Source of the DNA: Parcubacteria group bacterium | GTDB taxonomy: Bacteria > Patescibacteriota > Minisyncoccia > UBA6257 > UBA11618 | Length of the DNA stretch: 64,000 nt | Direction: 5' to 3' | NCBI GenBank assembly: GCA_943357895.1 | Contig: CALRGO010000002.1 | Coordinates: forward strand, 25,926-89,925 | Shown here: positions 15,009-15,208 of the stretch, piece by piece | How positions within the stretch are numbered: the stretch's first letter is position 1 | Layout of the letters: every line of letters starts with the position of its first letter | Position numbers and translations under genes: made by a program | The notes under the pieces: model-generated | What the model was told of the DNA's origin: nothing | The model's database searches: none | What the model saw: only the letters and a program-made list of their open reading frames with translations

Positions 15009-15208
15009 CGAATCCGCGGTGCTATGGGGACCCGTTACGACGCATGTAAATACAACCTCTTTCGTCGTTAGAAGCGACGTAAAAAACAGAACTTAACCTC
15101 AGCGCAAGCGATTCGGGATTCAGACAGTAGTTTTTTACTGCTTCTTTCCTCCTCTTTCGGGTATTTACTATGCGTCTCCACTTAGGTCCCCATAGCACCG
15201 CGGATTCG
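15009..15208. repeat. MITE-like element / long hairpin: 24-bp perfect terminal inverted repeats flanking 152 bp
   Basis: cgaatccgcggtgctatggggacc (15009-15032) is the exact reverse complement of 15185-15208; arms extend imperfectly (acgcatgtaaatac / gtatttactatgcgt). Confidence 0.5.

What the first reader, a model, noticed from the sequence alone, without database searches (positions are those of the whole stretch)
15009..15208. MITE-like 200-bp element with 24-bp perfect terminal inverted repeats between a terminator and the mraZ operator
The exact 24-bp inverted repeats (cgaatccgcggtgctatggggacc) have imperfect extensions to ~50 bp and enclose 152 bp, with no ORF. It could be a miniature inverted-repeat element or a long structured sRNA controlling dcw operon transcription.
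Basis: seen in the sequence. Interest (0 to 1): 0.55.

Follow-up and report, generated by a model that had tools for sequence, protein, structure and literature searches.

The report
Structured RNA hairpin upstream of mraZ
The flagged 200-bp inverted-repeat element is real and belongs to an undescribed family of rod-shaped structured elements, most likely RNA, that sits just upstream of the cell-division (mraZ/dcw) promoter in a clade of ultra-small groundwater bacteria (Parcubacteria) and is swapped, lost or replaced by other hairpin elements between near-identical strains.

Summary
A perfect 24-bp inverted repeat (15009-15032 / 15185-15208) encloses 152 nt between a terminator and the mraZ promoter/operator. 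It is the only copy in the window.

Homologues occur at the same slot in at least five other Parcubacteria (MraZ 74-92% identical). The six clearly homologous sequences fold into one rod. Of its 72 pairs, 37 show changes on both sides and 94.9% of cells are paired, against about 40% for slid controls. The internal loops are conserved, and two wobble pairs are conserved only on the mraZ-sense (window minus) strand. No Rfam family matches.

The element is not a classic MITE. I found no second copy and no target-site duplication, and stems covary while loops are conserved.

The slot is nevertheless dynamic. Strains with 99.9% identical flanks carry a diverged allele or an unrelated three-way-junction element ("B-type"). 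One relative is empty and one keeps only a remnant. B-type is multi-copy: two inverted copies bracket a strain-specific 1.25-kb insertion in this window. A third hairpin (20450-20620) is a clean insertion polymorphism.

Best reading: a lineage-specific structured RNA element with locus-bound function. The main rival is a structure-dependent (REPIN/ERIC-like) mobile hairpin. The function is inferred, not shown.

The parts
15009..15208 (-). A-type structured element (about 200 nt rod). Sense strand is the window minus strand, the same direction as mraZ.
   Evidence: Covariance model R1 scores 233 bits on the minus strand and 48.7 bits on the plus strand, and this is the only significant hit in the window. 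The consensus fold has 72 pairs.
15185..15208 (-). 5' arm of the closing stem (CGAAUCCGCGGUGCUAUGGGGACC).
   Evidence: It pairs perfectly with 15009-15032. 17 of the 28 pairs of this helix show changes on both sides across 6 sequences.
15009..15032 (-). 3' arm of the closing stem.
   Evidence: Strains L004 and L007 carry a G-to-A change here that breaks one pair.
15176..15184 (-). Conserved junction UAAGUGGAG, opposite GUAACGGGU (15033-15041). It includes a U-G pair that is invariant in all six sequences.
   Evidence: Alignment invariants. Pair 29:209 is UG in 6 of 6 sequences.
15145..15158 (-). 5' strand of the large internal loop ('central bubble'): CGAAAGAGGAGGAA, purine-rich and conserved.
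   Evidence: Unpaired in the consensus structure. Consensus is CGAA(A/C)GAGG(A/C)GGAA across species.
15058..15069 (-). 3' strand of the internal loop: AACGACGAAAGA, also purine-rich, so it cannot pair with the 5' strand.
15088..15129 (-). Apical domain. Conserved CUGUCUGAAUCCC (15115-15127) and GGUUAAGUUC (15089-15098) flank a variable hairpin (15099-15114).
   Evidence: This is the most conserved part of the family and is still recognisable in the diverged member L115, which scores 39.5 bits. The hairpin between the two motifs varies in length and sequence but stays paired (helices 7-8).
15214..15219 (-). TATAAA, a -10-like hexamer 5 nt upstream of the closing stem. It is a possible promoter of the element (inferred).
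   Evidence: Read from the sequence. AT-rich hexamers occur at a similar distance in L013 (TATAAA), L093 (TAAATA), L015 (TATATA) and L006/L100 (GATAAC). It is not called by the consensus promoter scan.
15238..15260 (-). Intrinsic terminator of the upstream 121-aa ORF (15281-15646).
14997..15005 (-). TTATCCACA box (perfect DnaA-box consensus, also resembling an inverted MraZ box) between the element and the -35 hexamer.
   Evidence: Present at the 3' junction of nearly every allele (A, A', B, the L014 remnant, empty L101, the L116 hairpin; L016 reads TTCTCCACA). Also present in Parcubacteria with no element.
14905..14995 (-). mraZ promoter (TTGACC 14990-14995, TACTAT 14968-14973) and phased MraZ-type boxes (GTGGGG 14979-14984 and 14948-14953, GTGGAT 14938-14943, ATGGGG 14928-14933, AGGGGAT 14907-14913).
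   Evidence: Promoter; boxes read. This block is 100% identical in all strain contigs.
4263..4408 (-). B-type element copy 1. It belongs to the three-way-junction family that replaces the A-type at the mraZ slot in strains L003/L005.
   Evidence: Model R2 scores 150.4 bits.
5160..5370 (+). B-type element copy 2, inverted relative to copy 1, with a roughly 65-nt insertion.
   Evidence: R2 scores 141.8 bits. The pair brackets a 1.25-kb strain-specific insertion.
20450..20620 (.). C-type long-stem hairpin (20-bp perfect arms) inserted between the rpmF stop codon and the nusB start codon.
   Evidence: Filled versus empty sites are compared.

Best explanation
The element is a member of an undescribed, lineage-specific family of structured non-coding elements ('A-type') that acts as RNA.

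Shown:
- It is a roughly 200-nt rod with a 26-30-bp closing duplex and two further helices.
- It has a large purine-rich internal loop, two more helices, and an apical domain with conserved unpaired motifs.
- The fold is maintained by compensatory substitutions across at least six sequences from a Harrisonbacteria-like clade of Parcubacteria.
- In all these genomes the full-length element sits in the same place, between tRNA-Val or an accessory ORF and the mraZ promoter.

Inferred:
- It is transcribed in the mraZ direction, either from a weak -10-like promoter (TATAAA at 15214-15219) or as the 3' trailer of the tRNA transcript in genomes where it directly follows the tRNA.
- The long perfect closing duplex is a processing stem cut by RNase III (the rnc gene is at 19284-20015).
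- The released rod presents its conserved loops to a protein partner. The loops are the CGAAAGAGGAGGAA / ACGACGAAAGA bubble and a GAA / AGU loop-E-like apical motif.
- Because there is no terminator between it and mraZ, its transcription could also feed into or insulate the dcw promoter.

The element is dispensable at strain level and is exchanged by recombination between conserved flanks.
For: 1. Covariation. Six distinct sequences, 72 pairs, 94.9% of cells paired against 83.8% in shuffles (0 of 500 reach the observed value). 37 pairs change on both sides against 16.6 in shuffles. Slid-partner controls give 36-43% paired.
2. The pattern is the RNA-gene pattern: stems vary while loops are invariant.
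3. Strand asymmetry. The U-G pair 29:209 is invariant in 6 of 6 sequences and the G-U pair 86:150 occurs in 5 of 6. On the same pairs, 338 of 357 cells are canonical on the sense strand against 325 of 357 on the antisense strand. Every member has a lower MFE on the sense strand.
4. Orthologous position across MraZ identities of 92% (L093), 90% (L013), 87% (L100), 76% (L015) and 74% (L115, diverged). Neutral sequence would be unalignable at that divergence.
5. Single copy. R1 finds one hit in the 64-kb window and none away from the mraZ slot in about 650 kb of Parcubacteria loci. A motif scan of 241 million metagenome records gave two hits, one of them at the mraZ slot.
6. In L093 and L015 the element follows tRNA genes with no terminator between, which is compatible with co-transcription.
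7. RNase III is encoded in the window (ORF translation; Pfam assignment of the orthologous gene in related contigs).
Against: - No expression data exist, so the promoter, the ends and RNase III cleavage are all inferred. The promoter scan does not call a promoter for the element, and there is no terminator after it.
- It is not essential. Strains with 99.9% identical flanks carry a different element (B-type in L003/L005). L101 has an empty site and L014 only a 3'-arm remnant.
- Compensatory change is also documented in mobile hairpin DNA such as REPINs (PMC3116915), so covariation alone does not prove an RNA function.
- The same genome holds other long-stem hairpins that behave as insertions.
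- A perfect 24/24 duplex is more than RNA structure needs and could reflect arm-to-arm gene conversion.
- The strand evidence is moderate: by position, 12 G-U against 6 A-C.
Confidence: 0.5

Rival explanations
1. A structure-dependent mobile or horizontally exchanged hairpin element (REPIN/ERIC/MITE-like). Its fold would be needed as single-stranded DNA for recognition by a trans-acting enzyme such as a Y1/RAYT-type transposase or a site-specific recombinase. It would home to, or be tolerated at, the slot upstream of the mraZ promoter.
For: - Slot polymorphism among genomes with near-identical flanks: alleles A, A' and B, a remnant, and an empty site.
- The A' allele in L006 is more diverged than the alleles of other species, even though its flanks are identical to the window. 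That implies horizontal replacement.
- L094 carries a 5' half of A fused to a B-type element upstream of lexA, not mraZ.
- Unrelated long-stem hairpins occupy the same slot in L016, L116, L070 and L078.
- Exact inverted repeats of at least 14 nt, 60-320 nt apart, number about a dozen in 660 kb against 0.7 in shuffles.
- In the same window, C-type is a clean insertion, and two inverted B-type copies bracket a 1.25-kb strain-specific insertion.
- REPINs show common compensatory changes (PMC3116915).
Against: - A-type is single-copy wherever it was seen. No target-site duplication is visible against empty site L101.
- No transposase or recombinase lies next to it or among the 17 window ORFs checked.
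- Conserved asymmetric internal loops and conserved wobble pairs are not expected for TIRs.
- Copies in species down to about 75% MraZ identity keep structure at one locus. Selection for mobility would not maintain that unless every lineage acquired the element independently.
Confidence: 0.27
2. A 6S-like RNA: a rod with a central open bubble that binds RNA polymerase holoenzyme. Like E. coli ssrS-ygfA (from my own knowledge), it would be transcribed without its own terminator into the downstream operon.
For: - Length is about 200 nt. The architecture is a closing stem, a large internal loop of about 12-14 nt per side, and an apical stem.
- It is single-copy.
- There is no terminator between it and mraZ.
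Against: - No hit to Rfam 6S or any other family, even at E up to 10 on this region and E up to 1 on three other members.
- Both bubble strands are almost purely purine, a poor template for a purine-initiated product RNA.
- The element is absent or replaced in near-identical strains, which is unusual for 6S.
Confidence: 0.1
3. A generic cis-acting hairpin. Any very stable stem-loop placed upstream of the dcw promoter would serve to block read-through, to protect the 3' end of the upstream transcript, or to set local DNA topology. Sequence would be unimportant.
For: Many unrelated hairpin families occupy the same position across Parcubacteria, and replacement of A by B is tolerated.
Against: - A canonical terminator already precedes the element.
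- A-type loops and apical motifs are conserved in sequence, which a generic hairpin would not need.
- There is no U-tract after the stem.
- An empty site exists in L101, and distant relatives lack any hairpin.
- All the loci were fetched through mraZ, so the apparent hot spot is partly ascertainment.
Confidence: 0.08
4. A non-functional palindrome kept complementary by arm-to-arm gene conversion (concerted evolution of inverted repeats), with no selection on RNA.
For: Arms are perfect in this window (24/24), in C-type (20/20) and in L116 (20/20).
Against: Gene conversion would erase the internal loops and the conserved U-G / G-U pairs. These persist in all six sequences. The loop sequences are conserved, not merely unpaired.
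Confidence: 0.05

Closest known systems
ERIC / Correia (NEMIS) / RUP-type bacterial MITE-like palindromic intergenic repeats
   Same: They are 100-200-nt imperfect palindromes in intergenic DNA, often next to terminators or promoters. They are co-transcribed and act on mRNA processing and stability. They show presence/absence differences between strains (review PMC3184786).
   Different: Those families are multi-copy, have TIRs conserved in sequence and TA target duplications. A-type is single-copy and syntenic, has no duplication, and has covarying stems with conserved asymmetric loops.
REPINs (REP doublets forming hairpins, mobilised by RAYT transposases)
   Same: They are hairpin-forming non-coding elements in which compensatory changes on the two sides of the stem are common, and structure matters more than sequence in part of the element (PMC3116915).
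   Different: REPINs are about 100 nt, present in tens to hundreds of copies, have highly conserved REP ends, and are linked to a RAYT gene. None of this was seen here.
6S RNA (Rfam RF00013)
   Same: Size, rod shape with a closing stem, a large internal bubble and an apical stem, and the lack of its own terminator.
   Different: No covariance-model match. The bubble is purine-only. The element is dispensable and replaced between strains.
mraW RNA motif (Rfam; Actinobacteria; recalled from my own knowledge)
   Same: A structured RNA candidate associated with the start of the mraZ/mraW (dcw) cluster.
   Different: That motif is not among the matches listed at E up to 10. It belongs to a different phylum. 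Here the element lies upstream of the predicted promoter rather than in the 5' UTR.
Integron attC sites, and MITE pairs that mobilise intervening genes (IMU)
   Same: Structure-conserved, sequence-variable, strand-specific hairpins at the edge of variable gene cassettes. The B-ORF-B module resembles two MITEs flanking a cargo (IMU).
   Different: No integrase and no R/L core sites (the flank reads GTTATCC, not GTTRRRY). The elements are 150-230 nt with large conserved loops.

Membership tests
MITE | Terminal inverted repeats | tested here: met
   The repeat is a 24-bp perfect inverted repeat. Between homologues the arms covary instead of being conserved in sequence.
MITE | Multiple dispersed copies in the genome | tested here: not met
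   There is one copy in the 64-kb window. R1 finds no off-slot copy in about 650 kb of related loci. Collection scans gave 0 hits in genome contigs and 2 in metagenomes. The whole source genome was not available, so this result is limited.
MITE | Target-site duplication flanking the element | tested here: not met
   The flanks are ...CGAAA | element | AGGTTATCC. Comparison with empty site L101 (TTTTTTGCTAC-TTATCCACA) shows no direct repeat.
MITE | Presence/absence polymorphism at orthologous sites | tested here: met
   L101 is empty, L014 has a remnant, L003/L005 and L102-105 carry B-type, and L006 carries a diverged allele.
MITE | Cognate autonomous element or transposase sharing the ends | not testable with these tools
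   None was found among the ORFs checked. The complete genome was not available.
6S RNA | Match to the Rfam covariance model | tested here: not met
   No 6S hit at E up to 10 on this region or at E up to 1 on L093, L100 and L006.
6S RNA | Rod with closing stem, large central bubble and apical stem, 150-200 nt | tested here: met
   Shown by the consensus structure from 5-6 sequences.
6S RNA | Binds RNA polymerase holoenzyme and templates product RNA | not testable with these tools
   This needs biochemistry. The purine-only bubble argues against efficient templating (inference).
Conserved structured RNA motif (generic) | Base pairs supported by compensatory changes across species beyond controls | tested here: met
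   37 of 72 pairs change on both sides, 0 of 500 shuffles reach the observed value, and slid controls give about 40% paired.
Conserved structured RNA motif (generic) | Strand-specific signal (G-U pairs on one strand) | tested here: inconclusive
   The sense strand is favoured (338 against 325 of 357 cells; two conserved wobble pairs; lower MFE in all members), but the margin is modest.
Conserved structured RNA motif (generic) | Transcribed | not testable with these tools
   No RNA-seq data were available.
mraW RNA motif / any Rfam family | Covariance-model match | tested here: not met
   Only tRNAs reach the gathering score in the window. Nothing relevant appears at relaxed thresholds.
Retron msr-msd | Flanking inverted repeats plus an adjacent reverse transcriptase gene | tested here: not met
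   Inverted repeats are present, but the neighbours are a 121-aa ORF with no Pfam hit and mraZ. There is no reverse transcriptase.

The most novel reading that the evidence does not exclude
Parcubacteria may carry a previously undescribed system of structured-hairpin 'cassettes'. Unrelated families (A rod, B three-way junction, C/D rods) each keep their fold by covariation. They replace one another in a fixed slot directly upstream of the cell-division (dcw) promoter. In some alleles that slot is flanked by inverted TGGATAA / TTATCCA boxes. The same families bracket strain-specific gene insertions elsewhere. This would be either a new structure-dependent mobile-element or recombination system, or a set of interchangeable regulatory RNAs for cell division in organisms with minimal regulatory repertoires.
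Probability: 0.2. Interest if true: 0.8.

Novelty: new variant of a known kind. Interest (0 to 1): 0.55.

Why it matters
Candidate-phyla-radiation bacteria have tiny genomes and almost no described non-coding RNAs or mobile elements. This locus gives a well-supported structured element: 37 covarying pairs from only six sequences, at the head of the cell-division operon. It also gives evidence that near-identical strains swap it for another structured family that brackets accessory-gene insertions.

If the element is a functional RNA, it is a new regulator candidate for division or envelope genes in uncultured symbionts. If it is mobile, it points to a structure-recognising mobilisation mechanism and a source of strain-level variation in these streamlined genomes. 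Either way, the two covariance models built here (A-type and B-type) can be used to annotate these elements in metagenomes.

Tried and rejected
- **Rfam.** Searches at gathering and relaxed thresholds on the window, the region, the B-type region and three homologues gave only tRNAs and chance-level hits such as a plant miRNA hairpin.
- **First genome-collection pattern.** ACCTAAGTGGAG..CCCGAAAGAGG was too strict and found nothing.
- **Viral contigs.** Scans for A, B and C motifs gave nothing except one chance 20-mer inside a phage gene with no partner arm.
- **Phage and plasmid collections.** blastn found no match.
- **Coding potential.** Rejected because the short ORFs are not conserved and indels are not multiples of three.
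- **Retron, T-box, SRP, RNase P, tmRNA, Y RNA.** No model match, or the required neighbouring gene is missing.
- **Origin of replication** (suggested by the perfect DnaA box). Cumulative GC skew rises monotonically across the window with no inflection.
- **Homology between A-type and C-type.** Only a 9-mer is shared and it is not collinear, which is about what chance gives.
- **Integron attC.** No integrase and no core-site match.
- **Neighbouring variable ORFs.** Pfam and PADLOC gave no hits.
- **Transposases.** None were found among ten further window ORFs.
- **Literature.** Searches for CPR/Patescibacteria structured RNAs, 6S or MITEs found nothing describing these elements.

Full report
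**Observation**

The window contains a perfect 24-nt inverted repeat, 15009-15032 / 15185-15208, separated by 152 nt. With up to three mismatches the 24-mer occurs nowhere else in the 64 kb, and shuffles give zero matches. The pairing continues inward, and the whole 200 nt folds far better than shuffled sequence on either strand (z = -8.9 and -9.1).

All neighbouring genes are on the minus strand. Reading in their direction, the order is:
- rplJ-rplL;
- tRNA-Val (15944-16018);
- a 121-aa ORF (15281-15646) and its intrinsic terminator (15238-15260);
- the element;
- a TTATCCACA box (14997-15005);
- a sigma-70-like promoter (TTGACC 14990-14995, TACTAT 14968-14973);
- phased GTGGGG / GTGGAT / ATGGGG boxes of the MraZ-operator type;
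- mraZ (14458-14889), rsmH, ftsL and a PBP.

**Organism**

The closest MraZ relatives are uncultured Patescibacteria (CPR) MAGs. They include 'Candidatus Harrisonbacteria' nzgw435 and nzgw434 at 89% and 76% MraZ identity.

**What it is not in the databases**

No Rfam family reaches its gathering score in the window except two tRNAs. Relaxed searches on this region and on three homologues give only chance-level hits. There are no matches in phage or plasmid collections or in viral contigs.

**Homologues and structure**

Contigs encoding exactly the same MraZ protein gave the first comparison. Most carry the identical element. L006 carries a version about 75% identical in which the changes in the stems are compensated.

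More distant relatives carry recognisable homologues in the same position:

| Locus | MraZ identity to window | Note |
|---|---|---|
| L093 | 92% | directly after a tRNA |
| L013 | 90% | |
| L100 | 87% | |
| L015 | 76% | after two tRNAs |
| L115 | 74% | diverged; apical motifs kept |

RNAalifold on five sequences predicts a single rod with 72 pairs, 34 of them with compensatory changes. On six sequences aligned to the covariance model:
- 94.9% of cells are paired, against 83.8% in column shuffles (0 of 500 reach the observed value);
- 37 pairs change on both sides, against a shuffled mean of 16.6;
- sliding the 3' partners by 1-3 columns drops pairing to 36-43%.

The unpaired regions are conserved in sequence:
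- UAAGUGGAG / UAACGGGU next to the closing stem;
- a large internal loop, CGAAAGAGGAGGAA opposite ACGACGAAAGA, with both strands purine-rich;
- apical CUGUCUGAAUCCC ... GGUUGAGUUC around a variable hairpin.

Variable stems combined with conserved loops is the signature of a structure under selection. It is not the signature of transposase-bound terminal repeats.

**Strand**

A U-G pair is invariant in all six sequences, and a G-U pair is present in five of six. For the same set of pairs, 338 of 357 cells are canonical on the mraZ-sense strand against 325 of 357 on the other strand. Every member folds more stably on the sense strand. This is moderate evidence that the functional strand is the window's minus strand, as RNA or as single-stranded DNA.

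**Copy number and mobility tests**

The covariance model finds one copy in the window. In about 650 kb of Parcubacteria loci it finds copies only at the mraZ slot. A degenerate motif scan of the metagenome collection returned two loci:
- L093, at the mraZ slot;
- L094, where the 5' half of an A-type element is fused to a different structured element upstream of a lexA-like gene.

A relative with an empty site (L101: terminator-GCTAC-TTATCCACA-TTGACC) shows no target-site duplication. So the defining MITE features other than the inverted repeat are not met.

**The slot is nevertheless dynamic**

- L003 and L005 are 99.9% identical to the window for kilobases on both sides. Across a roughly 350-bp patch they are unalignable, and there they carry another, equally stable element, 'B-type'.
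- L102-L105, a species at 85% MraZ identity, also carry a B-type variant there.
- L014 retains only the 3' arm of an A-type element.
- L016, L116, L070 and L078 carry unrelated long-stem hairpins in the same place.
- The A' allele of L006 is more diverged than the alleles of other species although its flanks equal the window's. That points to import by recombination.
- The genes between the tRNA and the element also differ between genomes: 121 aa, 265 aa, 135 aa, a Cu-oxidase_4 protein, or none.
- A truncated tRNA-like copy follows tRNA-Val. The region therefore behaves as a small variable island bounded by conserved flanks.

**Other hairpin families in the same window**

B-type is a three-way junction. 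It has 56 predicted pairs, 27 of them compensatory among four sequences, an invariant U-G pair, and a clear sense-strand preference (191 against 178 of 196 cells).

Two copies lie in the window, at 4263-4408 (minus) and 5160-5370 (plus). Together they form the inverted ends of a 1.25-kb block carrying one ORF. That block is absent from other contigs encoding the identical RecR, where recR is followed within 30 nt by rplU. Weaker B-type matches occur in other Parcubacteria in either orientation, including inside an mraZ 5' UTR in L082.

A third rod, 'C-type' (20450-20620), has 20-bp perfect arms and z of about -7. It fills the 16-nt rpmF-nusB spacer in this genome and in L096 but not in L095, L097 or L099. 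L098 has a different hairpin there.

Exact inverted repeats of at least 14 nt, 60-320 nt apart, are about 18-fold more frequent in these loci than in shuffles. Long-stem hairpin elements that come and go are thus a general feature of these genomes.

**Interpretation**

I favour a locus-bound structured RNA (confidence 0.5). Single-copy orthologues in species whose MraZ proteins differ by up to a quarter still keep both fold and loop sequences. Selection for transposition would not maintain that at one site.

The mechanism is inference:
- transcription toward mraZ from a weak -10-like hexamer (TATAAA, 15214-15219), or as a tRNA trailer;
- excision through the long closing duplex by RNase III, which is encoded at 19284-20015;
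- protein binding through the conserved loops.

The main rival (0.27) is a structure-dependent mobile or horizontally exchanged hairpin. In REPINs, compensatory changes are common and the structure serves mobilisation (PMC3116915). ERIC- and Correia-type repeats likewise sit next to genes and act on transcripts (PMC3184786).

Three further readings are less likely, for the reasons listed under the rivals:
- a 6S-like role fits the shape but fails the model test and the distribution;
- a purely generic insulating hairpin does not explain the conserved loops;
- concerted evolution of palindrome arms does not explain the preserved loops and wobble pairs.

**Limits**

- There are no expression data.
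- Only six clearly homologous A-type sequences are available, plus one diverged copy and one half copy.
- The alignment used for counting was fitted to the model.
- The loci were fetched through mraZ, so the 'hot spot' is partly ascertainment.
- The complete source genome could not be scanned.

**Verdict**

The feature is real. It is a new family of structured element and not a classic MITE. Its function is still inferred. It is embedded in an unexpectedly dynamic population of hairpin elements in a CPR genome. Interest is moderate (0.55).

Noticed in passing
window 4263-4408 (-) and 5160-5370 (+); also L003 2713-2860, L094 2955-3096, L102 621-724: 'B-type' is a conserved three-way-junction element with no Rfam match. 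Its core reads GGAACAUCUCGG[hairpin]CGAGAGCGAAUGCC[hairpin with CCGCAGGAG loop]GAGCAUGUUUCC. Of its 56 pairs, 27 are compensatory among four sequences. It is multi-copy, and it replaces the A-type at the mraZ slot in some strains.
   Followed up: partly
window ~4200-5440: A 1.25-kb block (inverted B-type copy, one ORF, B-type copy, terminator) is absent between recR and rplU in other contigs that encode an identical RecR protein. It looks like a cargo gene bracketed by two hairpin elements.
   Followed up: partly
window 4539-4547: A poly-G tract (G9 here, G10 in contig L111) splits a signal-peptide-like start (ATG 4489) from the main frame of the 202-aa ORF. G8 or G11 would restore the frame. 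This is a candidate phase-variable secreted protein, or a homopolymer sequencing error.
   Followed up: partly
window 20450-20620: The 'C-type' rod has 20-bp perfect arms and sits exactly between the rpmF stop codon and the nusB start codon. Related genomes have an empty 16-nt spacer (L095, L097, L099) or a different hairpin (L098). No clear target duplication is visible.
   Followed up: partly
window 14997-15005; also L017-L019, L024, L101, L116: TTATCCACA, a perfect DnaA-box consensus, lies just upstream of the mraZ -35 hexamer. It is conserved across Parcubacteria, including genomes without any hairpin element. In several alleles an inverted partner (ATGGATAAY) lies upstream of the element. 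It could be a DnaA site or an extra inverted MraZ box.
   Followed up: no
window ~15806-15934 (-): A truncated, tRNA-Val-like second copy lies directly after tRNA-Val. It has a D-arm fragment, then about 75 nt containing two GATTTTAAAATC palindromes, then a T-arm and the 3' acceptor strand. It looks like the scar of integration events at this tRNA. L093 and L015 have related fragments.
   Followed up: no
L082 3810-3952; L024 about 3700-4000: In some Parcubacteria a structured element lies downstream of the MraZ boxes, inside the mraZ 5' UTR. In L082 it is a B-type-like element on the opposite strand.
   Followed up: no
L078 2911-3009 and 3806-3901; L070 3627-3822; L116 868-1074; L016 3783-3876: Further unrelated long-stem hairpin elements lie immediately upstream of mraZ promoters in other Parcubacteria. 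The two L078 copies are related to each other, and the arm of one overlaps the -35 hexamer.
   Followed up: no
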